Shown here: in pieces, positions 1 to 10,987 of the stretch
Numbering within the stretch: position 1 is the stretch's first letter
Layout of the letters: each line of letters starts with the position of its first letter
NCBI GenBank assembly: GCA_044344255.1
Contig: JBIJDH010000057.1
Span: 1 to 10,987 of the forward strand
DNA: 10,987 nt
Direction: 5' to 3'
Origin: Myxococcota bacterium
Lineage (GTDB): Bacteria; Myxococcota_A; UBA796; UBA2385
The notes under the pieces: generated by a model
The model's database searches: none
Told to the model about the DNA's origin: nothing
The model's input: the letters and a program-made list of their open reading frames with translations, nothing else
Translations under genes and position numbers: made by a program

Positions 1-21
1 GCGGGGCACCCGAGATCGGGC

Positions 22-58
22 AAAAGACGCCCTCTCGGGGCCGTACCCCGGGAGGGCG
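22..58 (-). terminator. Probable intrinsic terminator (minus-strand orientation)
   Basis: 13-bp GC-rich stem CGCCCTCTCGGGG (28-40) / CCCCGGGAGGGCG (46-58) with one mismatch and a 5-nt loop, followed on the minus strand by TCTTTT (27-22). Confidence 0.55.
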
Positions 59-73
59 ACGGTAGCGGGGACC

Positions 74-84
74 TGTGGTAAGGT
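74..84 (+). promoter_or_regulatory. Possible extended -10 promoter element (TGTG-G-TAAGGT)
   Basis: TGnTAnnnT pattern 11 nt upstream of the TTG at 96, just after the hairpin. Motif match only. Confidence 0.25.
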
Positions 85-95
85 CGGAGTCGTGA

Positions 96-389
96 TTGCC
101 CCCCGCCGTTCATGCGCCCTATCCCCACGGCGCCCTCGCCTGGATACGTCTCGCCGAGATGAGCCTCCGCCTGCGCCCGCTCGACGCCCGCCTCCAGGCG
201 GAGTGGCCCGAGCTCGCCACCACCCTGCCGGGCGGTCTGGCCGGCGGTCTCGACGGCGCCATCCGTCGGCTGGCCCGGGAGGTGACCGCTATCGACGAGA
301 CCCGTCGCCTGTGGACCGAGCTGTGGTTGCCGGAGCTACGGCACCGCCCCATCCGGGGTGAGATGCCCTCCTGGCCCCCCACTCATTAA
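96..389 (+). CDS. Hypothetical protein, 97 aa
   Basis: TTG start with GGAG at 86-89; G/C-ending codons and protein-like helical composition (Leu/Trp/Glu/Arg). Ends with TAA 35 nt before the convergent ctaA stop. No family recognised. Confidence 0.45.
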   Translation: MPPAVHAPYPHGALAWIRLAEMSLRLRPLDARLQAEWPELATTLPGGLAGGLDGAIRRLAREVTAIDETRRLWTELWLPELRHRPIRGEMPSWPPTH

Positions 390-424
390 GAGCTCAGGGG
401 CAAAAACTCCCGGGCTGTCGGGCT

Positions 425-1459
425 TCAGGACGACTCCGATCCGGCGTCGCGACAGCGGTGCAGCAACCCCACAGCACAACCAAAGAGCAGGACCGCGTTG
501 ACCTGGTGCAGGGAGGCGAGGCTGATCGGCACCCGATGAAGGACGGTGAGCGCGCCGAGGCCGATCTGGAAGAGCACTAGGACACCGAGGCCGATCGCCC
601 ACCGCCGGGCAGGGAGGTCGGTGGTGGATCGGAGGGTGGTAAAACAGAGAGCGATAGCCAGGGCAGCACTACAATAAGCGAGGCTGCGGTGGATGAAGTG
701 TACGGTGAGCGGATCTTCTACGATCCCGATCCCTACCCGCAGCCCATCCGGCACGAGCGCCCCGTTCATCAAGGGAAAGGAGGGGGCGACAAGCCCCGCA
801 TGGAGCCCCGCCATCAAGGCCCCCCAGCCGAGGGTGAGGAAGAGGAGCCCGATGGTGGCGCCGGAGAGGGAACGAAGGCGGGAGGGCAGGCTCGGGGCTG
901 CGCTTCGCTCAAGGTCGCTCTGGGCCTGCCAGAGCAGCAGCCCGAAGAGGGCCACCGCCAACAACAGGTGAGTGGCGAGGCGGTAGGGGCTCACCCGCGG
1001 CACATCCACGAGGCCGCTCTTCACCATCCACCAGCCCACCACGCCCTGGAGCCCGCCAAGAGACAAGATCCCCACCAACTTGAACAGTCGGCGGCCGGCG
1101 ATTCGCCTGCGCAGCGCAAAGTAGAGCAGCGGCAGCCCGAAGATGAGCCCGGCCAGCCTCCCGATGAGGCGATGGGCCCACTCCACGAGGAAGATCTCCT
1201 GAAACTCCCCGAGGCTCATCCCATGGTTGACGTGGGCATACTCGGGGGATGCCTGGTAGAGCGAGAAGGCGCGGTCCCAGGCATCGGCACCGAGGGGCGG
1301 GAGCACCCCCGTCACCACATTCCATTCGGTGATGGACAGCCCGGAGTGGGTGAGGCGGGTGAGCCCGCCCACCACCACCATGATCAACACGGTGAGGGTA
1401 CAGCCGAGGAGCCAGAGCCCAATGGAGCGGTCGCGGAGAGCGGGGGGTGTGGAGTCCAT
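425..1459 (-). CDS. ctaA: Heme A synthase (CtaA/COX15 family, type 2 without the Cys pair), 344 aa
   Basis: Motifs GGLTRLTHSGLSITEW, EWAHRLIGR, VSPYRLATHL, VHFIHR and SLHQ, with about 8 hydrophobic segments. The real start is probably the ATG at 1459 (AGGAG upstream); the 595-aa track ORF is an upstream over-extension. Confidence 0.93.
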   Translation of the reverse strand: MDSTPPALRDRSIGLWLLGCTLTVLIMVVVGGLTRLTHSGLSITEWNVVTGVLPPLGADAWDRAFSLYQASPEYAHVNHGMSLGEFQEIFLVEWAHRLIGRLAGLIFGLPLLYFALRRRIAGRRLFKLVGILSLGGLQGVVGWWMVKSGLVDVPRVSPYRLATHLLLAVALFGLLLWQAQSDLERSAAPSLPSRLRSLSGATIGLLFLTLGWGALMAGLHAGLVAPSFPLMNGALVPDGLRVGIGIVEDPLTVHFIHRSLAYCSAALAIALCFTTLRSTTDLPARRWAIGLGVLVLFQIGLGALTVLHRVPISLASLHQVNAVLLFGCAVGLLHRCRDAGSESS

Positions 1460-1518
1460 CCGACACCCTCTCCTGCTTCGCGGGCGGGAGCAAGGGGGCC
1501 CGGCCATGACGGAGGGCC

Positions 1519-2586
1519 TCAGGCGCAGGTCGGGTCGGTCGGGAAGGCCCGGTGCGCGGGATCCCAACGCTCCCAAGCCTCCGTCTCCACCGCCTCGGCG
1601 CGCACCTGCCCCCACCAGCCGGTAAAACGCAGCTCGCGGGACAACAGGGCAGATTGGATGCTGGAGAGGCATCGATGGCTGTAGACGGCGAGGCCGGGCT
1701 CCGGGCGCCCGGCGAGGCGCGGATAGACGATGTCGGCGCGGCTTGAGCCCGCACAAAGAAGACCTCGAAGCAGCGCTTCGGGGGCCGCCTGGTGCCGAGC
1801 TCCGACGAGCAGCACCTCGGGGGTGTCCGCGGCCGCGAGCCCGGTGTAGAGCGCGCCGAGCAGGCCCAGCTGTGGCCGGATATCGGTCACCACACCGATC
1901 CCATCCCGCGACGCAGAGAAGGACGCAGAGAAGGACGCAGAGAAGGGTGCGGAGCTGACGACAAGGGCCCGGGCGCCCAGGGCCGCGGCGAAGCGGAGCG
2001 CCACGGCCGCCGCGACCTCCTGTTCCGGTGGACGGCCGGCCGGACAGAGGACGGTCACCTGCCGGGGCGCTTCTGGGGATAGAAAACGGTTGACGATCCA
2101 ATCCGCCACCCGGACAGGCTGGTCGAGAGGTAGGACTGGGAGGTCCGGACCCGAATCGGGGTCGAGCTCCGTGTCGGAGGCCCAGGCGATCGTGTTCTCG
2201 GGCGGCGTCCACCCCTTATCGGAGGGTCCCCCACCTCGGAACACCCGAATCGTGGGGATGCCGGAGCGGCGAAAACCCTCGGCCAGCACGATGTCGGCGC
2301 TGGGGAAGAGCCGCTCCACCGCATGAACCAAAGAGACCTCTCCTTCGAGTCGCTCGAAGAGGGCGAGCCGCTCCGCGGTGAGCAGGGCGACGCTCGAGGC
2401 CCCCGCCTCGCTGAAGCGCCAGGAGTCCTTACCGGGGGTGTCGAGCTGGACCCGGTGGGCATCCGACTTGAGCACCCCTACGCGGAGGCCCCGCGCGCGG
2501 AGCTCTCCGATGAGCGCCACGATGAGGCGGGTCTTTCCGGTGCCCGAGGGGGCAGCGAAGGCCACGACAGGCGGGAGGCGGGCCAT
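1519..2586 (-). CDS. mobB: Molybdopterin-guanine dinucleotide biosynthesis protein MobB fused to a C-terminal MobA-like (NTP transferase fold) domain, 355 aa
   Basis: N-terminal Walker A APSGTGKT, RVGVLKSDAH, DTPGKDSWRF and DIVLAEGFR are MobB hallmarks. C-terminal VVTD..PQLGLLGALYTGL and RPEPGLAVYS resemble MobA. ATG at 2586 is preceded by GGAG. Confidence 0.88.
   Translation of the reverse strand: MARLPPVVAFAAPSGTGKTRLIVALIGELRARGLRVGVLKSDAHRVQLDTPGKDSWRFSEAGASSVALLTAERLALFERLEGEVSLVHAVERLFPSADIVLAEGFRRSGIPTIRVFRGGGPSDKGWTPPENTIAWASDTELDPDSGPDLPVLPLDQPVRVADWIVNRFLSPEAPRQVTVLCPAGRPPEQEVAAAVALRFAAALGARALVVSSAPFSASFSASFSASRDGIGVVTDIRPQLGLLGALYTGLAAADTPEVLLVGARHQAAPEALLRGLLCAGSSRADIVYPRLAGRPEPGLAVYSHRCLSSIQSALLSRELRFTGWWGQVRAEAVETEAWERWDPAHRAFPTDPTCA
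1910..1945. repeat. Perfect 12-bp tandem repeat x3 (GACGCAGAGAAG), encoding FSAS x3 in the MobA-like domain
   Basis: Copies at 1910-1921, 1922-1933 and 1934-1945; in frame. Confidence 0.95.
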
Positions 2587-2617
2587 CTTGAGGCTCCAAC
2601 GCGGGATAAGTAGGCGT

Positions 2618-3340
2618 TCAGTGGTGGGGCGCCGGCCCGCGAGGTGGTTGCCGGGAGCGCTCCTCCAGCCCGGGGATGGTGACACAGGCCCCGCAGTTGG
2701 CCACCTCCTCGGCGTCGTCCTGCACAAAGAAGTCTGTCGGGGCGGGGTAGACTGCCTCTATCGTACACTCCTCGGTCACCAGCCTGTCCACCCAGCCGAG
2801 CAACGGTCCGAAGACAGGGTCTTCCACCACCCGGGGGCGGAGGGAGAGGGCCCGGGCGAAACCCCCGAGGTGGTCCTGGAGGAACTTCCGCCTCGCGTCG
2901 GCCACGATCTCGGTGCCAACCGGGTCATCCAGCAGGATGGACTGTTTGTAGAGGAGCAGCGCATAAAACTCCATCTCGATCGCGATGTGGTCGGGCATCT
3001 CCGCGCCGACCTCTTCGGTCAGCGCGAAGCCGAAGGCGTTGTAGAAGCCCACGACATCGGAGAGGTCCTTGCCTTTGGAGAGGCCCCGCATTCGCCCATA
3101 TTCCGTCTCGTAAACGGCCACCCTCGCCTCGCCGCCATCGAAAGCAGCGAGATAACCTGCCCGTAAGGCATCTAAACCCCCTCGAGCGCGGTTGAGAAGG
3201 GGGCGGAGCTCCGGACGCCCCTCCAGCTCCGGCGCCAGCGCCAGGAGGGTCTGAAGAGACTCCGGAGAGGGGAAGCTGGTGGAGATCGCCGCGAGGGTGA
3301 AGTCCCGCGTGCGTTGGGACAGCGCTTCGGCCGGGCTCAT
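2618..3340 (-). CDS. TorD/DmsD-family redox enzyme maturation chaperone (delta subunit), 240 aa
   Basis: VYETEY, LSDVVGFYNAFGF, EMPDHIAIEMEF (E/x-P-D-H motif) and FLQDHLG. Start ATG at 3340 overlaps the gamma-subunit stop (ATGA, 3340-3337), indicating translational coupling. Confidence 0.9.
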   Translation of the reverse strand: MSPAEALSQRTRDFTLAAISTSFPSPESLQTLLALAPELEGRPELRPLLNRARGGLDALRAGYLAAFDGGEARVAVYETEYGRMRGLSKGKDLSDVVGFYNAFGFALTEEVGAEMPDHIAIEMEFYALLLYKQSILLDDPVGTEIVADARRKFLQDHLGGFARALSLRPRVVEDPVFGPLLGWVDRLVTEECTIEAVYPAPTDFFVQDDAEEVANCGACVTIPGLEERSRQPPRGPAPHH

Positions 3341-4233
3341 GGTTTCACCTGAAGCGGGGTCCAGGCCATGACGACGCTCTTTCGGGAGCCCACCTCGCCC
3401 TGGCCCCCCTGCCAGGCCGCGAAGGCCACCGCGTTCTTGCCCCCCGGCACGATGGTGGAGCCGCCGTCGATCCGGAGCGGTCTGCTGATCACCACCGTCC
3501 ATTGTCCATCCTTCCACTCCCCCTTGCCTGTGCTACCATGGCCCGACTGCACGGCTGAGGTGGAGAAACCCTCGGCGATGATCTCGTCCACCCCCGATTT
3601 GGGCGAGGACTGCGGGTTTCCGAGGGCAACGCCGGGGTTGAACATCTCCCGCTCCTCCTTGCTCCCGCCCGGGGCATCATGAAAGTCCATCGCGTACATA
3701 TCCACCGAGGCGTTCGGATAGAGGTCACTCATCGTGGGCTTCCCCTTCTCCGCATCCCGCTGATACTGCGCCCTCCAGTGGAAGATATGGACCGGCTGAC
3801 CCTCCGAGCCCATCATCACAGAGGGGAGGGCCTCTCCGCTCATCGGAAATTCGAGGGCGACCGCATCCGAGAATTGACCGAGCCCCCCAGCATCACTCTT
3901 CTCGGTGTCCTTCCAGCGCAGGCGAAAGGCGATAGACTTTCCGTCGGTGACCGACTGAACGACGATCTTCTCCGTGAGCACCCGTTCGGGCCGCGGGGTG
4001 ATGATCGGCTGGGCGAGGAGGGTGAGCTCCCCCGCGGGGGCCTCCTTCCAGTAAGAGGCGCCGGGGTCGGGCGCGCTCACGTCGGCCTCCACCCGCGCCG
4101 CGATGAGCTCGGTGAGGGGCGGGGCCACGAGCTCCGCCACCTCGGTGCGGATGCCGGGACCCCCCGAGTCGCCGCAGGCGACGAAGACGATGAGCGGGAG
4201 GACCCGCCACTCTGGCGTATGAGACGAATTCAT
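3337..4233 (-). CDS. Heme b-binding gamma subunit (ethylbenzene dehydrogenase gamma/DOMON-like, NxrC-like), possibly a lipoprotein, 298 aa
   Basis: IAFRLRWKD, FSDAVALEFP, PSVMMG (candidate Met ligand), VHIFHWRA, AEGFST, WTVVISRPL and VAFAAWQG...GSRKS (candidate Lys ligand). ATG at 4233 has GGAGG upstream. The N-terminus reads RVLPLIVFVAC. Confidence 0.87.
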   Translation of the reverse strand: MNSSHTPEWRVLPLIVFVACGDSGGPGIRTEVAELVAPPLTELIAARVEADVSAPDPGASYWKEAPAGELTLLAQPIITPRPERVLTEKIVVQSVTDGKSIAFRLRWKDTEKSDAGGLGQFSDAVALEFPMSGEALPSVMMGSEGQPVHIFHWRAQYQRDAEKGKPTMSDLYPNASVDMYAMDFHDAPGGSKEEREMFNPGVALGNPQSSPKSGVDEIIAEGFSTSAVQSGHGSTGKGEWKDGQWTVVISRPLRIDGGSTIVPGGKNAVAFAAWQGGQGEVGSRKSVVMAWTPLQVKP

Positions 4234-4247
4234 GGCTGCTCCTCCGC

Positions 4248-5384
4248 TCAAGGCGTGTTGTTCCGAACCGCGCCGATCTTTTCGTCGTAGGCGGGGCGCT
4301 CGAAGATGCTCTCTGTCACCGGGACGCGCACGATCTCGCTCCCATCGGTGTCGTAGCCGATGGCCATGCCCCCCTTCACCGCAAAGGAGTGCAGGATCCG
4401 CTCGCTGCTGCCGATGAGACAGAGCAGGCCCGCGGCGATGGGATCGGTGTGAATGGCCTTGTACCGCTCGATGGCCTCGTGGACACGCGGGCCGAACATC
4501 TGCTCCAGATAGGCGGGATCTGCATGAATGGGAGGGATATAGTAGATATTGGGCTCGAGGCCGAGCTGGGGGTAATAGGGCAGCGCGATCTGTTTCTCGT
4601 GGACCAGAAAGTCAACAGGGTTGTCTTTCCGCGCGGTCCAGGGCGGGTTGATGAAGCCCATAACCCGGATCTTGCCGATACAGTTCACGACACACTGGGG
4701 CTGGATCCCCTGCTCCACCGCCGGGTAACATCCGATACACTTCTCGCTGGTGCGGGTCCACGGATTGTACATGGACTTCTTGTAGGGACAGGCTCGAACA
4801 CACTCGCCATAACCCTTACACCGGGTCTGGTCGATGAGGACGATACCATCCTCCGGACGTTTATAGATGGCCTTCCGCGGGCAGGCCGCCAGGCAGGCCG
4901 GGTAGGTGCAGTGGGCGCAGGTTCGTGGGAGATAGAAGAACCACTTGTCGTGGGGCAGCTCCGCCATATGGGCACCCCCGTCGAGGTTCCCGCCCGCGCA
5001 GTCATCCTCGCCGATATTGGGGTACATCCAGTCTTCGTCCACCGGGGCGTAATGCAGCACCCGCTCGGTGGGCGGGGCCGACTCGATGATGGTCTTCCCG
5101 AGGTACTCCCCGTTGGCTGACCAGTCCTGTCGGCCGAGCTTCTCCAGGATGCGGAGGTCCCAGGCCATGGGGTAGGCGCCCCAGGGCTTGGTCTCCACAT
5201 TATTCCAGAACATATACTCCTGGCCTTTGCCGCTCGTCCAGGTGGTCTTACAGGCGAGGGTGCAGGTCTGACAGGCGATACACTTGTTGAGGTCGAAGAC
5301 GATCGCCCACTGTTTCTGGGGGCGGCTCTCTTCGTAGGGATAGGCGATAGGCCGCCCAAGGTGCCAGTTCTTGACTTGAGGCAT
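4248..5384 (-). CDS. Fe-S beta subunit of a type II DMSO reductase family enzyme (NxrB/NarH-like), 378 aa
   Basis: Four Cys groups: CIACQTCTLAC, CAHCTYPACLAAC, CKGYGECVRAC (3Fe-4S type) and CIGC...CVVNC. Also GQEYMFWNNVETKP and FFYLPR. RBS AAGGAG. Confidence 0.95.
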   Translation of the reverse strand: MPQVKNWHLGRPIAYPYEESRPQKQWAIVFDLNKCIACQTCTLACKTTWTSGKGQEYMFWNNVETKPWGAYPMAWDLRILEKLGRQDWSANGEYLGKTIIESAPPTERVLHYAPVDEDWMYPNIGEDDCAGGNLDGGAHMAELPHDKWFFYLPRTCAHCTYPACLAACPRKAIYKRPEDGIVLIDQTRCKGYGECVRACPYKKSMYNPWTRTSEKCIGCYPAVEQGIQPQCVVNCIGKIRVMGFINPPWTARKDNPVDFLVHEKQIALPYYPQLGLEPNIYYIPPIHADPAYLEQMFGPRVHEAIERYKAIHTDPIAAGLLCLIGSSERILHSFAVKGGMAIGYDTDGSEIVRVPVTESIFERPAYDEKIGAVRNNTP

Positions 5385-5404
5385 GATAAACTCCTTGTAT
5401 TCCT

Positions 5405-8400
5405 TCAGGCGCGCCGCGTGAATCCGCCGGCCAGGTAAATCTTCATCGATTCACTCTCGTAGGTCGGGCGGAGGCCGAGCTCCGCGGGCCGCCAGAGGCC
5501 ATGGCCGCCGATCGCCCCGTCCTCCTTCTTGACGAATTTGACGAAGGCCTCGCGGGGGGCCCCGACCGGGCAGTGAACATCGGCGAGGAAACCTTTCATG
5601 AGCTGCTGACCGAACATATCCTTATGCACCAGGGTCTCGGTCATGAGCGTGGGCTTGAGCCAGGCCCGGGTCGCGCTCTGATGTGAGCCATATCGGTACA
5701 TCGCCTGATAGTTGGTGCCCTCACTCTTGGCGAGGCCATCCGGCCGGGTCTCGTGCCCCTTCACGCTCCCGAATGTGGCACCGTACATATTGTGCCAGGT
5801 GCGGGTGATCCCGCGCGGAGTACCCGGGTAGTAGCGGACACGAAGGAGGAGCCGCGCGATCTTGTACTCCTCTGTGCCTTCCTTCCAGCCTCGGAAGGGG
5901 CGGTCCTCGGGATCGGCGTCTACATAGGCGTAGTCACCCTCTTCGAGGCCGAGCTCTTTCGCGTCCTCGGGGTGCATGTCCACGTAGCCTTCCGTGATCG
6001 AGGGCATCCGTTTGTCGTGCCGATACACATCGCCGAAGGGGCCGAAGAGCACCCCCGTGAAGTCGGTGTCCACCGGGGTGGTGTGGGCGCCGTGGCGGTA
6101 CTTGGGGGTGTGATAGACATGTTTGTACCCGAGGGCCGCGAGGGGGTGCTTCGTCAGCAGCAGCTCAGCGACCGTGTACTGAACATGCCTGCCCTGCCGC
6201 ACCTCGGAGCCCACATCCCCTCTCTTCAGGCCGTACTTCTCGGGGGAGTCGGGGCGGACCATCGGATGGGGAGCGGCGGCGATGGCGTTGGGCTCCCGGT
6301 GGGTGGAGTCGATGGGCTCCCGGTGGACGATCATATTCTCGCCGCTCGCGATGAATTCCGCCTCCGGCCGATAGAACTCGAGCCTCCCGCTGCGGGTGTG
6401 CCAGGGCTGCTCACCCTTCGCCTGCTCATAAGAGGAGATACGCGGGTAGGTGCGCATGTTCACGAGGCAGGGAATGCCGGCCTTCGCCTTCTCGTGCATC
6501 TCGTGGATATCGTATCCCTTGAGCGAGAAGGATCCGTTGACGATGCGCTGCAGATAAGCCTCGACGTTGTTCTCATCGACAAACTTCCACGCCGAAGTAA
6601 AACGCTTATCGGCGAGGTGCGTTCCGATGGCCTTGCTCACCCCCGCGATGATCTCGATGTCCGCCTTGGTATCAAAGACCCTGCGAATGGGCGACTTCGG
6701 AAAGATCTGCACAAAGGGGTTGGTGCAGCTCGCCGTCATGTCGATGTGACGGAACTCAGCCCAGGAGTCGGCGGCGAAGACGATGTCGGAGTACTCGCAG
6801 GAGGCCGTCCACCACCAGTCGGCGAAGGCGATCATCTCGATACGAGGCAACGTGTTGTGAACCACATCATAATGCCACTTCACATTGCCGATCACCGAGT
6901 TGCTGTTGTTCAGCCACATGGCCTTGGTGGGCACGGGCATATGGCCCTTGCCCGTAAGGAGGGCATTACCCACGCGGAGCGGCCGGTCGCCGTTGTTGTA
7001 ATAATGGAGCGACTCATAGTGGGTGTACTTCTTGACCTTCACCTTCGCTTTGGGGTCGAGCTCGAGGTTGAAGGGGTCTTCTGCGATAAAGGTGGGCATT
7101 CCGCCGAAGATCGCGGCCCGATAGTTACCCGCGTAGCTCCCCACATTGCCACCGGGGAAGCCGATATTTCGGGTGAGCGCCGCCACCAGCAGGATGGCGC
7201 GGTCTTTCAGGTCGGCGTTGAAGAACTGGTTCGGGCCCATGCCCGTGGCGAAGATGGTCTTCTCCGGGTTCGCCGCGATCATTCTTGCGAGGGAGACCAC
7301 TGCCGTGGCCGGCGCCGACGTGATGCCCGAGACCTGCTCCGGCGTCATGTTGGTGTCGAGGTACTCCTTCAACAGCGAGAAGTGGCTGCGCACCTCCACC
7401 TCGTTGCCATCCACGAGCTTGACCTTCGTATTGGCGAGGAGGTCGATGTTGAGGCCCCTCCCCCGCGGGCCGACATGGTCTCGGGTGACCGCCACGGGTT
7501 TGCCGGAGGGGTCGAGGATGACGAAGGCGCCCATGTCACCGAGCATCCCCTCGGGGACGATCTGCTGCTGATGGCCGATCGCCGGCGCAGCCTTCTCGCC
7601 CTTCGCGAGCAGGGTCGCTCCCCCGAGGCCCTTACCCGCGGCGGGGGCCGCGAGCCCGATGTCTTCGGGGCGCAGGGGCTGGAGCGTGTCGAGGCGGATG
7701 AGGAAGGGGAGGTCTGTGTTCGTCTTGACCCAGACATCGTCATAGAGCTTCTCGGCGAGGATGACCTGGGCCAGGCCGAGGGCGAAGGCGGGGTCTGTCC
7801 CCGGCCGAATGACGATCACCTCGTCACACTTACTCGCCGTGGCGCTGTACTCCACGGTCACCGCGATGACCTTCGTCCCCTTGATCCGCGCCTCGGTCAG
7901 CCAGTGGCTGTCGGGCATCTTGGTGGTGATCCAGTTCATGCCCCAGACGATGGCGACGTTACTGTGCTCTACGCTGAAGAGGTCAAAGTCATTGGTCTGC
8001 GAGCCCGTGACCATCGGGTGGCCCGGGGGCAGGTCGGTGTGCCAGGAGTAGCTGTCCCAGCCCCGGGCACCCACCGCCTTGTCCGGCCCGACGCCGCGAA
8101 TGGCGTCATCGGCGAGGGCGAGGAGGTTGGCGAATCGATACAGTCCGAAGATCCGGGTCGCCCCGAGGAAGGCCATCCCGCCACGAATCTTGACGGTCTG
8201 GGTGCCGGCCCCCTCCATCGCCTCGATCATCGCCTCGTCATAGTCCTGCGCCTTGAGCAGCGCCGCGCCCTGCTCTCCCGAGTAGGTGGTCGAGATGTTG
8301 AGGAGCCCGCGGGCGGCGTAGTCATAGGCCTCGTCCCACTCCACCCGCACCCAGCTGTCTTTCCCGCGTTGGAAGTATTTCTCGTCGCCTCGTCCGGTGG

Positions 8401-8860
8401 CGGGGTCGCGGGGGAAGCCTGCGTCTGCCCACTCCTTCCACCCCTTTCGAATCATCGGCGACTTCACCCGCCGGTCGCCATAGATCCGGCGGACGAGCGC
8501 CAGGCCCTTCTGGCAGAGGCGCGGGTCCCAGCGATGCGAGGCGGTGTTTCCGTAGAGGTCGGTCGCCTTTCCATACCCATGGGTGGGGCCGATACGCACG
8601 ATGATCCCGTTCTTCACATAGGCCTTGAGCAGGCAGTTGTGGGTGTCATTCGGCGCACAGAGGAAGACGAAGCTGTAGTCATGGGCGAAGATATTGCGGT
8701 AGGCCCGCTCCCAGTCCCGCTCCGGGTAGAAGCTCAACGGATTGTCGACTCGGGTGGGTGCGAGGTACCGAATCGGGGTCGCCGAGGCCACCCCTGCGAC
8801 GGTGATGCCGAGGACGAGCTGAAGGAAGCCGCGTCGGGTATTGGGGCTTGGGTGGGTCAC
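5405..8860 (-). CDS. Tat-exported molybdopterin (Mo-bisPGD) catalytic alpha subunit, nitrite oxidoreductase/nitrate reductase-like (NxrA/NarG-like), 1151 aa
   Basis: GTG start with AGGAG RBS; twin-arginine signal TRRGFL...ASA; FS0 motif [10 protein letters not shown]39-[12 protein letters not shown] carrying the Asp Mo ligand of type II enzymes; [37 protein letters not shown]. Confidence 0.95.
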
Positions 8861-8902
8861 GGGATGCTCCTGCGACGGTCGAATGGACGGCGGGATAGAT
8901 GG

Positions 8903-9694
8903 TCAGTGGGTGTCGAGGACGGCGCGCGGACTGGCGTCGTAGACGACGAGGCCGGGGATCAGCCGCTCGATGGTGCGGACGAGGGAGTGGTTCAGGTCGA
9001 GGCCGCAGGCCGGCCCGGGCTGGTGGAGCTGGAGGTGAAGGGCCCCTTCCATGAGGCCGAGGTACTCCACCGTCGCCCCCGGGGCGATTCGCCCCATCTT
9101 CTCTGCGGCTTCTACAAGTGGGGCCTGCATCGACTCCGGGATGGGCTGGTACCGCGCCTCGTTCTGCAGCTCGACATGCAGGAGGTCGACACAGCGGGTC
9201 GAGCCGCCTTCTGGGCTCTCGACTCGGCTGTAATATACCGCCGTCGCGAGGCCCGATGTGAGGCCATGCAGGGCCTCCCGCCAGTAGGAGCACCGGGGCG
9301 ATGCGCAGGGGAGGCGGTCGGTCCGGCTCTCCCGGGCCGCGGCATCTCGGTGGAAGCTCCCCTGGGTGCAGGGTGGGCTGAGGAAAGGCAACAGCTGGCT
9401 GAGATCCGGAAGCGTGAGATCAACACGATGAAACCTACGAAAGCCGAGGCCGAGCGTGTGGCTGTTGTCGAAGACACGACGCAGCACCGCGGCCGGATCT
9501 GCCGCGGTGGCGGCGGCCAGAAGCTCTCCCTCCGGGGCGTCGAGCGGGTACTCGGGGACGACGGTGCGGAGCGCCGCCCGCCGGGCTGCGGTCCAGCGTC
9601 TGTCAAGCTCTCCCGCCTGCATCTGCAGGTAAGCGCCGATCGCCGGCTCCGGTGTTGGGGAGGTGGGAGGGTCGGTCTGGCTGTGGGAATTCAT
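8903..9694 (-). CDS. Hypothetical Cys-containing protein, 263 aa; central V4R/metal-binding-like region and NifU-C-like C-terminus (tentative)
   Basis: ATG with a good AAGGAG RBS; co-oriented and 42 nt upstream of the alpha gene; five Cys. Domain resemblance is by eye only. Confidence 0.75.
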   Translation of the reverse strand: MNSHSQTDPPTSPTPEPAIGAYLQMQAGELDRRWTAARRAALRTVVPEYPLDAPEGELLAAATAADPAAVLRRVFDNSHTLGLGFRRFHRVDLTLPDLSQLLPFLSPPCTQGSFHRDAAARESRTDRLPCASPRCSYWREALHGLTSGLATAVYYSRVESPEGGSTRCVDLLHVELQNEARYQPIPESMQAPLVEAAEKMGRIAPGATVEYLGLMEGALHLQLHQPGPACGLDLNHSLVRTIERLIPGLVVYDASPRAVLDTH

Positions 9695-9854
9695 CCCTGC
9701 GCTCCTTGTGGCGGGGACGACTGCAAGAACGGGGCCAGGGCCTCCCCCAGGGGCCCGCGGCGGCGCCCAAAGACCGACGGAGAGAGCGGACGCTCCCTTT
9801 CAGCGGATGTCGGACTCGGTTGTCATGGCGGGGAGCGGGAGAAGGCACAGGTGT

Positions 9855-9874
9855 GGTGTGTGAAATAGCACACC
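9855..9874. promoter_or_regulatory. Candidate transcription-factor site
   Basis: Inverted repeat GGTGTG-N8-CACACC, overlapping TGTGA-N6-ACACC (8/10 match to the CRP-family TGTGA-N6-TCACA), in the divergent intergenic region. Confidence 0.35.
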
Positions 9875-9980
9875 CAGTCATCCGGCCCGGTGGGGCCAGC
9901 CCAAAGGTCCGAAATATTGACTGCTGCGGAGAAGCTTCTCTGAACGATCCGGCGCGGCCTATGTCATCTTCGGCGGCGCG

Positions 9981-10008
9981 TTGCCCTGAGAGGTCTACAG
10001 GCTAAGCT
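9981..10008 (+). promoter_or_regulatory. Possible sigma70-type promoter for a leaderless transcript
   Basis: TTGCCC-N16-TAAGCT, then 6 nt to the GTG at 10015. No Shine-Dalgarno sequence at normal spacing. Confidence 0.3.
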
Positions 10009-10014
10009 CTGCTG

Positions 10015-10701
10015 GTGACCACCCTCGCCCGCCAGACCCCTCCCCTGAGCCCCGCCCTCTCCCAAGCGCTCGCCCGCCGGGAGCTGGACTTTGACGACAA
10101 CACCGCCCCCTGGCTGGTGGGCGCCCCGGAGCTCGAGCCTGGGCCCCGCCTCCGAGGCAACGAGAAGGCCGATGTGGTCATCATCGGCGGCGGCTTCACC
10201 GGCCTCTCTACCGCCTTGAACCTGATCATCCGGCACCCGAACCTCCGCATCGTCCTCTTGGAGGCCCGCCGGGTGGCGAATGGGGCCAGCGGCCGGAACG
10301 GCGGGCAGATGTTGAACTGGGTCAACGGGGTAGACACCACCGATGAGCCGCTCACGAAGCGGGTCTTCGACCTCACCCGGAGCGGCATCGACGACGTCGT
10401 CTCCCTCATCCGCGACAATGGTCTCCGTGTGCGCCACGCCCGCGACGGGGCCCTGGAGGTGCAGTGCAGCGCGGAGGGCGCCGAGCACGCCCAGGAGAAG
10501 GCCGAAAGAATGGCCCGTTGGGGCATCCCGCTGCGCTACATCCAGGGGGCCGAGCTCAAGGCCACCCTGCAGATGACCGGCGCCCGGGGCGCGCTCCTCG
10601 ACCCCACCGCCGGCCAGCTCAACGGCGTGGACTACCTCCGGGAGCTGGCTCGCCTGCTCGTCGCGCGGGGGGTGGTCATTCATGAGGACAGCCCGGTCCT
10701 C
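10015..10701 (+). pseudogene. N-terminal ~229 codons of an FAD-dependent oxidoreductase (DadA/PuuB gamma-glutamylputrescine oxidase-like), apparently truncated or fused
   Basis: Manual translation gives ADVVIIGGGFTGLSTA (Rossmann GxGxxG), IVLLEA, GASGRNGG, DPTAGQLN and GVVIHEDSPVL. In-frame TAA at 10003-10005 bounds the start. Absent from the ORF track because the frame has no stop before the window end. Confidence 0.75.
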
Positions 10702-10987
10702 TATGTGCGTGGGAAGGAGGGCGGTGTCCGGTTTCGGCCGGCACGAGCTCACCCCTCCGATGTGGAGGCGCTGATCGTGGCGATCGCGACAGCCTGCGAA
10801 GCGTGGCTGGCACGACAGGGCCATGGGCCAGAGGACGCGGCGGAAGAGGCCGACGACGAAGGGATGCGCCTCTTCCAGGCCGCCGCTGTGGCGGGGTACT
10901 CCGTGGTGAGAGGGGCGCCGACGAGGGTGGCGCGCCGTGTGCAGCGCATCGGGGGGAGGGAGCGGGAGCTCCCGCCGCTCTGCGCTT
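10702..10987 (+). mobile_element. Internal fragment of an IS91-family (Y2 rolling-circle) transposase-like sequence, in frame with the oxidoreductase; runs off the window
   Basis: Translation YVRGKEGGVRFRPARAHPSDVEALIVAIATACEAWLARQGHG...LFQAAAVAG...ARRVQRIGGRERELPPLCA resembles the segment between the HUH/DGV(Y/F) motif and the GF(S/N)LHA motif of IS91-like transposases. Recognised from memory. Confidence 0.62.

What the first reader, a model, noticed from the sequence alone, without database searches (positions are those of the whole stretch)
2618..8860. Complete periplasmic NXR/NAR-like alpha-beta-gamma-chaperone module in a high-GC organism
Seen: Tat signal on alpha, C-x3-D-x3-C-x39-C FS0 motif, Asp in WHTDLPP, four-cluster beta, EbdC-like heme b gamma and a coupled chaperone. 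Established: this architecture is shared by periplasm-facing nitrite oxidoreductases (Nitrospira, Nitrospina, anammox, Nitrotoga) and related, mostly uncharacterised nitrate-reductase-like enzymes. It differs from cytoplasmic NarGHJI. Inference: the host may be an unrecognised nitrite oxidiser or use an unusual periplasmic nitrate reductase. The high GC and neighbouring genes hint at a lineage outside the classic nitrifiers (Myxococcota-like is only a guess).
Basis: partly seen in the sequence, partly recalled or inferred. Interest (0 to 1): 0.8.

Follow-up and report, generated by a model that had tools for sequence, protein, structure and literature searches.

The report
Periplasmic nitrate reductase, unannotated fifth gene
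A freshwater myxobacterium-like microbe carries an intact operon for an exported molybdenum enzyme of a known nitrate/nitrite-converting group, most likely used to breathe nitrate rather than to oxidise nitrite, and the operon opens with a conserved cysteine-rich gene that has no name yet.

Summary
In detail: a Tat-exported alpha (FS0 C68-D72-C76-C116, Mo-Asp276), four-cluster beta, Met/Lys haem-b gamma and coupled chaperone. Alpha does not group with the sequences nearest Kuenenia NXR. It falls with Parabeggiatoa/Thioploca/Natronococcus enzymes (58% to Parabeggiatoa), the published sister clade holding Nitrotoga NXR and Hydrogenobacter NAR; neither reference sequence was available. The family is common: 24 of 300 same-phylum genomes. 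The host is Myxococcota by a same-family relative's label. It encodes NapA, NirK, NorCB-like, clade II NosZ, NrfHA, alternative complex III and two oxidases; RuBisCO, ATP-citrate lyase and CdhC were not found. Among 32 carriers, 0 have RuBisCO and 27 have NosZ. An Fnr-type box core lies upstream in 29 of 50 loci (10.5% background). Best reading: an anoxia-induced periplasmic nitrate reductase (about 0.7); nitrite oxidation is not excluded. It lies upstream of alpha in 52 of 58 loci of one Myxococcota-Bdellovibrionota subclade and in 0 of 26 others. The contig is bounded by IS91-like remnants.

The parts
8903..9694 (-). orfU, 263 aa, first gene of the operon; no signal peptide seen; H-NOX/V4R/Bet3-like domain (about 19-180) plus NifU-C-like domain (about 185-255); C130, C135, C168 invariant, C109 in 48 of 49
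   Evidence: No Pfam or NCBIfam hit; alignment; AF2 pLDDT 91.8; fold searches, best Z 7.3, Foldseek E 0.0025; co-occurrence
5405..8860 (-). Alpha subunit, Mo-bisPGD type II DMSO-reductase family, Tat signal, 3Cys/Asp FS0, Mo ligand Asp276
4248..5384 (-). Beta subunit, four Fe-S clusters, no signal peptide seen
3337..4233 (-). Gamma subunit, EbdC/NxrC-like haem b protein (Met141/Lys285), no transmembrane helix; lipoprotein-like N-terminus (LIVFVAC, read by eye)
2618..3340 (-). Delta, TorD/NarJ-type chaperone, translationally coupled to gamma
1519..2586 (-). MobB-MobA-like fusion (molybdopterin guanine dinucleotide synthesis); also follows the operon in G033; only copy found in the genome with this query
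425..1459 (-). Haem A synthase CtaA; not a conserved neighbour (1 other locus of 84); a second, divergent ctaA lies on contig C70
9858..9873 (.). Palindrome 179 nt upstream of orfU; a possible degenerate Crp/Fnr-family site (one mismatch to the TGA-N6-TCA core found in relatives); function not shown
10015..10700 (+). Truncated FAD oxidoreductase (DAO family), cut by the repeat; full paralogue on C5 at 82% aa; not part of the operon
1..127 (+). End of a roughly 1 kb multi-copy element with a degenerate IS91-type (Y2) transposase
10701..10987 (+). Part of the same element, same orientation as the left copy

Best explanation
A periplasm-facing respiratory nitrate reductase of the Nitrotoga-NXR/Hydrogenobacter-NAR sister clade in a facultatively anaerobic, heterotrophic Myxococcota. 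Shown from sequence: alpha has a Tat signal, FS0 and the Mo-Asp; beta has four clusters; gamma has Met/Lys haem ligands and no membrane helix; the operon has no quinol-oxidising subunit. Inferred: delta and MobB-MobA mature alpha-beta in the cytoplasm, the pair is exported by Tat and meets gamma, which is probably lipid-anchored. Under low oxygen, electrons pass from quinol through alternative complex III and a periplasmic cytochrome c to haem b, the Fe-S chain and Mo, reducing nitrate to nitrite outside the membrane, where NirK/Nor/NosZ or NrfHA take it on. OrfU is most likely a cytoplasmic, cysteine-liganded metal-binding maturation factor for this subclade (Fe-S or cofactor loading; about 0.5), or else a ligand or redox sensor (about 0.3); this step is inferred from fold and position only.
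For: Host encodes NirK (354 bits, over cut-off), NapA-like (866 bits, under the 904 cut-off), Sec-type clade II NosZ (796 bits, over cut-off) with NosD, a NorCB-like pair with NorQ and a vWA gene, NrfH/NrfA, alternative complex III, aa3-type and cbb3 oxidases. RuBisCO 0 of 32 carrier genomes, control rang in 5 of 14; CdhC 0 of 5. NosZ at E<1e-30 in 27 of 32 carriers against 6 of 37 same-order genomes without this subclade. NrfA at 190 bits or more in 18 of 32. 17 of 32 carriers gave no NarG or NapA hit at E<=1e-60, and 15 of those 17 have NosZ or NrfA. TGA-N6-TCA, the Fnr-box core, lies within 320 nt upstream of orfU in 29 of 50 loci, against 242 of 2313 control tiles. No NarK-like hit in the host at E<=1e-25, 9 of 32 carriers have one. 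Alpha sits with Parabeggiatoa, Thioploca and Natronococcus enzymes at 100/100; a Beggiatoa 4572_84 protein is called a nitrate reductase in PMC8387239 and the Hydrogenobacter enzyme of the clade is a characterised periplasmic NAR (PMC6050957).
Against: The host already has a NapA-like reductase, as do 15 of 32 carriers, so it does not need this enzyme to reduce nitrate. The clade contains a proven nitrite oxidiser, Nitrotoga, and no sequence motif separates the directions: the window has QT after the Mo-Asp like E. coli NarG but also like Kuenenia NxrA. The window's own promoter has no exact Fnr core. The ATP-citrate lyase search (0 of 32) had no positive control. Carriers are related, are draft genomes, and mostly come from other orders than the control set. 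The contig is small, slightly atypical (23 of 682 chunks as far in tetranucleotides) and has no direct overlap with a large contig, so host assignment is likely but not proven. A dedicated haem A synthase next to the operon could point to oxygen respiration, though it is not a conserved neighbour.
Confidence: 0.7

Rival explanations
1. Nitrite oxidoreductase used in the oxidising direction by a heterotroph: nitrite electrons go through gamma and cytochrome c to the aa3 or cbb3 oxidase as extra energy (lithoheterotrophy) or to remove nitrite.
For: Same four-gene layout and soluble-type gamma as Nitrotoga NXR (PMC6050957); both oxidases present; ctaA adjacent; NapA already covers reduction; NXRs are bidirectional (PMC6050957); alpha, beta-junction and gamma pieces at 99% or more in one freshwater RNA sample of unknown oxygen state.
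Against: Fnr-type boxes in 29 of 50 loci; NosZ in 27 of 32 carriers; ctaA beside the operon in only 1 other of 84 loci; the commonest neighbours are Moco genes (29 of 40 loci) and c-type cytochromes, with Crp/Fnr, NnrS and qNor genes recurring.
Confidence: 0.17
2. The host is an autotrophic nitrite oxidiser outside the classic lineages.
For: Membership of a clade that includes Nitrotoga NXR (literature).
Against: RuBisCO 0 of 32, ATP-citrate lyase 0 of 32 (no positive control), CdhC 0 of 5; 8.2 Mb genome 95% complete; carriers include Bdellovibrionota and Polyangiales. Other fixation routes (3-HP, reductive glycine) were not searched.
Confidence: 0.03
3. The enzyme reduces another oxyanion (chlorate, perchlorate, selenate) as its main job.
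For: Type II DMSO-reductase enzymes often accept several oxyanions (general knowledge, recalled); gamma resembles EbdC/SerC-type subunits.
Against: Pcr and Ebd alphas score 171 and 111 bits against 896 for NxrA; a chlorite-dismutase-linked enzyme falls far outside the clade; the substrate Asn71 is kept in 50 of 50 subclade rows; no chlorite dismutase among the 43 recurring neighbour proteins scanned.
Confidence: 0.05
4. The contig was mis-binned and belongs to another organism, so the host context does not apply.
For: GC 0.662 against 0.712 and third-position GC 0.81-0.85 against 0.87-0.96 in eight genes of large contigs; both ends stop in a repeat; flanks are paralogous to a region of C5 at about 80%.
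Against: The closest alphas among those searched (77-80%) are in same-family and same-order genomes; the flanking element occurs on many large contigs of this genome at 77-96%; the carrier-wide pattern does not depend on this one genome.
Confidence: 0.1

Closest known systems
Sister clade of periplasmic NXR: Ca. Nitrotoga fabula NxrABC plus chaperone, Hydrogenobacter thermophilus periplasmic NAR, Beggiatoa and Hydrogenobaculum NARs (Kitzinger 2018 PMC6050957; Chicano 2021 PMC8387239)
   Same: Tat alpha, signal-less beta, gamma without membrane helix, chaperone; 57.9% alpha identity to Parabeggiatoa 4572_84 and Thioploca; same 100/100 clade.
   Different: Separate 100%-supported subclade; extra upstream orfU; QT where Nitrotoga has QM after the Mo-Asp; lipoprotein-like gamma start; heterotrophic denitrifying host. 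Nitrotoga and Hydrogenobacter sequences could not be compared directly.
Kuenenia stuttgartiensis NXR-ABC (PDB 7B04) and Nitrospira/Nitrospina NXR
   Same: Best solved match for alpha, beta and gamma; FS0 3Cys/Asp, Asn70/71, Mo-Asp, Met/Lys haem ligands.
   Different: Window alpha scores 896 bits against 7B04, a planctomycete-clade protein scores 1590; that group is a separate branch (40-42% identity).
E. coli NarGHJI
   Same: Family, Mo-Asp, QT motif, four-cluster beta.
   Different: 24% identity over 609 residues; NarG has His-type FS0, no Tat signal and a membrane NarI.
H-NOX, V4R (DmpR/PoxR, MJ1460), Bet3 fold and NifU C-terminal domain, for orfU
   Same: Predicted folds of the two domains (Z 6.6-7.3); Atlas structure neighbours are ATC_hydrolase and V4R clusters.
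   Different: No sequence match; no invariant His for haem; no CxxC in the NifU-like part (one Cys in 32 of 49); Z under 8 may mean only a common arrangement.

Membership tests
Type II DMSO-reductase family (Nar/Nxr/Ser/Clr/Ebd/Ddh) | Asp ligand to Mo and N-terminal FS0 motif in alpha | tested here: met
   D276 and C68/D72/C76/C116 align to Kuenenia D275 and C67/D71/C75/C115
Type II DMSO-reductase family (Nar/Nxr/Ser/Clr/Ebd/Ddh) | Four-cluster beta subunit | tested here: met
   15 cluster cysteines invariant in 39 sequences
Nitrotoga/Hydrogenobacter/Beggiatoa sister clade | Alpha groups with Beggiatoa and haloarchaeal members, apart from the anammox side | tested here: met
   100/100 clade with Parabeggiatoa 4572_84, Thioploca, Natronococcus
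Nitrotoga/Hydrogenobacter/Beggiatoa sister clade | Direct grouping with Nitrotoga NxrA or Hydrogenobacter NarG | not testable with these tools
   No such sequence obtained; two pattern scans found nothing; link rests on PMC8387239 and PMC6050957
Nitrotoga/Hydrogenobacter/Beggiatoa sister clade | Tat alpha, exported gamma without membrane helix, chaperone gene | tested here: met
   RRxF motif, hydropathy scan, Pfam; signal peptides read by eye
Nitrospira/Nitrospina/anammox NXR | Alpha inside the clade nearest Kuenenia NxrA | tested here: not met
   896 against 1590 bits to 7B04; separate branches. The clade was represented by proxies, not by the named proteins
Nitrite-oxidising bacteria (as a way of life) | CO2 fixation by Calvin cycle or reductive TCA cycle | tested here: not met
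   RuBisCO not found in the 95%-complete host or 31 other carriers; ATP-citrate lyase not found, search without positive control
Nitrite-oxidising bacteria (as a way of life) | Growth on, or oxidation of, nitrite | not testable with these tools
   Needs physiology
Cytoplasmic NarGHJI | No Tat signal, His-type FS0, membrane NarI, NarK transporter | tested here: not met
   TIGR01580 150 of 1084 bits; Tat present; no NarI; no NarK-like hit in host
Ser/Clr/Pcr/Ebd/Ddh enzymes | Alpha groups with these and reaches the TIGR03479 cut-off | tested here: not met
   269.5 of 984.75 bits; Pcr 171 and EbdA 111 bits; Clr-like outgroup far away. SerA and DdhA themselves were not in the tree
H-NOX / V4R (for orfU) | Fold | tested here: inconclusive
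   Consistent top hits but Z at most 7.3 and Foldseek E at least 0.0025
H-NOX / V4R (for orfU) | Invariant proximal His for haem (H-NOX; feature recalled) | tested here: not met
   Best-conserved His column has His in 39 of 49 and Val in the window
NifU/NfuA (for orfU) | CxxC cluster-binding motif (feature recalled) | tested here: not met
   At most one conserved Cys in that domain, 32 of 49

The most novel reading that the evidence does not exclude
Heterotrophic and predatory Myxococcota and Bdellovibrionota carry a subclade of reversible nitrate/nitrite enzymes which they run backwards in oxygen, gaining energy from nitrite without fixing CO2, and OrfU is a new Fe-S or gas-sensing protein that gates maturation or direction of the enzyme. 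These groups would then be overlooked nitrite oxidisers in lakes and sludge.
Probability: 0.1. Interest if true: 0.85.

Novelty: new variant of a known kind. Interest (0 to 1): 0.4.

Why it matters
Which way enzymes of this clade run in cells is an open question (PMC6050957, PMC12687941), and annotation pipelines call them either narG or nxrA, which shifts nitrogen-cycle budgets inferred from metagenomes. Here a well-bounded subclade comes with genomic evidence for the reducing direction (NosZ, NrfA, Fnr-type boxes, no RuBisCO). OrfU is a marker for that subclade and a concrete target: an unnamed, tightly linked cysteine protein that may be a new kind of molybdoenzyme maturation factor. The alpha-beta-gamma-delta module itself is ordinary for its clade.

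Tried and rejected
Host taxonomy: no 16S gene in the assembly. The first RpoB tree was void because antisense ORFs were picked; the corrected tree left the host unresolved at the base of the delta group, 63-65% to Myxococcota RpoB; the Atlas gave no taxa. Reference sequences: two metagenome pattern scans for a Nitrotoga-type QM motif found nothing; a homolog search from P0123 listed no Nitrospira, Nitrospina or anammox names among 120 rows; Boddicker and Mosier 2018 is not held; Kameya 2017 was seen only as cited by others. Complex prediction of OrfU with beta and delta gave no verdict (median 0.21, mark 0.32), which is no evidence either way. OrfU profile against PDB sequences: nothing under E 1.7; Pfam DUF3782 in 4 of 49 members, not pursued. 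NirS not found in the host. The idea that the window's ctaA is the genome's only one was dropped: a second lies on C70. Sigma-70 promoter and terminator scan of 9600-10100 found nothing; an exact Fnr-like site at 10312-10325 lies inside the DAO fragment and is within chance (19 of 200 shuffles). The third-position GC percentile is unreliable because the ORF set includes shadow ORFs. RNA runs gave no cover of orfU, delta, mobB-mobA or ctaA; low depth, not evidence of silence. Joints linking the two contig ends have sides under 30 letters and come from the repeat; a circular form is not shown. The QT/QM/QN motif was rejected as a direction marker.
Full report
Setting. The window is the whole of contig C71 of an 8.18 Mb draft genome (83 contigs, GC 0.712, 95.24% complete, 2.02% contaminated). 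DNA holding half or more of the operon's words is in 14 lake, freshwater and river runs, 2 of them possible sources of this assembly.

Observation. The four genes are intact and the motifs are as described. Alpha has TRRGFL, C68-D72-C76-C116, N71 and D276, matching Kuenenia NxrA residue for residue. Beta has 15 cluster cysteines, invariant in 39 aligned sequences. Gamma keeps the Met/Lys haem ligands, has no window of high hydropathy and begins like a lipoprotein, as do many Myxococcota relatives (read by eye). Delta overlaps the gamma stop. Gamma most likely starts at 4233 and delta at 3340.

Placement. The best solved relative is Kuenenia NXR (896 bits; Pcr 171, NarG 124-130, EbdA 111). At 50% clustering the full-length relatives fall into three groups, represented by P0121 (55%, Gaiellaceae cluster), P0122 (46%, SAR202 cluster) and P0123 (42%). 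P0123 scores 1590 bits against Kuenenia, so it stands for the anammox side. In a 104-row FastTree and a 27-row IQ-TREE the window groups at 100/100 with Parabeggiatoa 4572_84, Thioploca, a Desulfurellales, Gaiellaceae and Natronococcus, apart from the P0123 group and from a chlorite-dismutase-linked enzyme and E. coli NarG. Identity to Parabeggiatoa is 57.9%. Chicano 2021 (PMC8387239, passages read) lists a Beggiatoa sp. 4572_84 nitrate reductase with Nitrotoga and Hydrogenobaculum as the more distant group; I take L074 to be that gene by organism name, not by accession. Kitzinger 2018 (PMC6050957, passages read) describes this sister clade: Nitrotoga NXR, the characterised periplasmic NAR of Hydrogenobacter, and many untested members. 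No Nitrotoga, Hydrogenobacter, Nitrospira, Nitrospina, Kuenenia, SerA or DdhA sequence was in my trees; loci with under 1000 aligned residues were left out.

Spread. 24 of 300 same-phylum genomes and 4 of 40 same-order or same-family genomes carry a full-length or nearly full-length relative. Similar enzymes in non-nitrifying phyla are reported in PMC12687941 and bioRxiv 2020.05.19.103440 (passages read). The module is therefore not rare.

Host. A same-family genome's alpha is identical over the tree columns to a protein that NCBI labels Myxococcota bacterium; RpoB is 63-65% identical to Myxococcota RpoB but deep and unresolved. The genome holds nirK, a napA-like gene, clade II nosZ and nosD at the end of C29, which overlaps the end of C27 carrying a NorCB-like pair with norQ (called Nor from context). 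It also holds nrfHA, alternative complex III, and aa3-type and cbb3 oxidases. RuBisCO, ATP-citrate lyase, CdhC, NarG, NirS and NarK were not found. Across 32 carriers of the subclade (the host, 3 relatives, and 28 of the 55 named subclade loci): RuBisCO 0, ATP-citrate lyase 0 (no positive control), NarG 1, NapA-like 15, NosZ 27, near full-length NrfA 18, NarK-like 9. Within the host's order NosZ is in 4 of 4 carriers and 6 of 37 others. Kin are not independent, the genomes are drafts, and only 8-11 candidates per genome were scored in some searches.

The fifth gene. OrfU (9694-8903) ends 42 nt before alpha and has its own Shine-Dalgarno site. Among 84 other loci it lies directly upstream of alpha in 52 of the 58 whose alpha is at least 61.5% identical, and in 0 of the 26 at 59% or less; one of the six misses and four of the 26 have little or no upstream DNA. 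Those 58 belong to one subclade supported at 100. In an independent draw of 300 same-phylum genomes the orfU profile hit 5, each next to an alpha of 69-77% identity; the 19 genomes with a 41-60% alpha gave no hit. It matches no Pfam or NCBIfam family; of 26 database homologs three are named, all hypothetical. The AF2 model is confident (pLDDT 91.8). Its N-terminal part resembles H-NOX, V4R and Bet3, its C-terminal part the NifU C-domain, at middling scores (Z up to 7.3). C130, C135 and C168 are invariant and C109 is in 48 of 49; there is no invariant His and no CxxC. I found no description in the library with the searches (listings only, apart from the papers named); subscription papers and bioRxiv supplements were out of reach.

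Regulation and neighbours. A search over all 3-base spaced palindromes upstream of orfU put TGA-N6-TCA first (29 of 51 against 3.1 in shuffles); it is in 29 of 50 loci against 242 of 2313 control tiles, with T/C and A/G preferred inside, as in Fnr boxes (consensus recalled). The window has only a degenerate palindrome at 9858-9873. Moco synthesis genes follow the operon in 29 of 40 loci; c-type cytochrome, Crp/Fnr, NnrS and qNor genes recur.

Mobility and assignment. Both contig ends lie in a roughly 1 kb element with a broken Y2 transposase, in direct orientation, found on many contigs of this genome. In two other DNA runs the stretch 127-9875 is present at depth 21-31 while the ends reach 230-520, and in one it sits in an 11.9 kb contig with unlike flanks. 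The unit from ctaA to the orfU promoter thus looks like an island with variable flanks; patchy presence in the order and lower third-position GC agree. The contig shares its end overlap only with small contigs, so I put assignment to this host at about 0.9. One freshwater RNA sample (two runs) holds short pieces of alpha, the alpha-beta junction and gamma at 99% or more; DNA carry-over is not excluded.

Mechanism. Most likely (0.7) an anoxia-induced periplasmic nitrate reductase fed by cytochrome c from alternative complex III, supplying nitrite to NirK and NrfA on the same side of the membrane without a transporter. The electron path is inferred. Against it: NapA is already present, the chemistry is reversible, and the clade includes Nitrotoga. 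Nitrite oxidation by a heterotroph gets 0.17, autotrophic nitrification 0.03, another oxyanion 0.05. OrfU is most likely a cysteine-liganded maturation factor, less likely a sensor; neither is shown.

Verdict. The finding as stated is a sound but ordinary member of a described clade, and earlier notes of this scan reached similar readings for other genomes (not independent). What lifts it is the bounded subclade with an unnamed, tightly linked fifth gene and genomic evidence on direction. New variant of a known kind; interest 0.4.

Noticed in passing
window 1-127 and 10701-10987; G000 C27:8586-9627, C40, C44, C57, C62, C66, C72 and others: A roughly 1 kb degenerate IS91-type (Y2 transposase) element in many copies; C40 is bounded by it at both ends like the window, with the same junction point. 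Could be an array of cargo units separated by these elements.
   Followed up: partly
window 127-314 and 10066-10701 against G000 C5:30951-31138 and 38385-39020: Both inner flanks of the window match one region of C5 at about 80%, in the same order, with different genes between them.
   Followed up: partly
G000 C29:160000-178106 joined to the end of C27: A denitrification island: nirK, napA with a DsrOP/NrfCD-like membrane module and multihaem cytochromes, clade II nosZ-cytochrome c-nosD, then norQ/vWA and NorCB-like genes.
   Followed up: partly
A3 (delta alignment); window 2618-3340: The chaperones of this subclade have two invariant C-terminal cysteines (C192, C216) in 33 sequences; beta also has an extra invariant C129.
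   Followed up: no
L072, L073, L075, L078, L080 upstream of alpha: In Acidobacteriota-type loci without orfU the enzyme follows a Rieske protein, cytochrome b and multihaem cytochrome c genes, a likely dedicated electron supply.
   Followed up: no
L045:779-4393: A Turneriella locus has a cytoplasmic NarG-like gene a few kb from the periplasmic alpha, whose Tat motif is degenerate.
   Followed up: no
L122:5700-9200 (Natronococcus occultus plasmid 2): The alpha gene is unlisted in the PLSDB table and its open frame lacks the N-terminal FS0 part; possibly a pseudogene.
   Followed up: no
L124:3122-8651 (Alisedimentitalea plasmid): Chlorite dismutase followed by a chlorate-reductase-like operon on a conjugative plasmid; used only as outgroup.
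   Followed up: no
L151:250-4093 and 12082-17812 (G020): The same-family relative's operon sits between a selenium-dependent xanthine dehydrogenase/SsnA pair and arsM and AbiEii genes, a different context from the window.
   Followed up: no
G000 C54:29849-31120: A molybdopterin oxidoreductase with one in-frame TGA, possibly a selenocysteine formate dehydrogenase.
   Followed up: no
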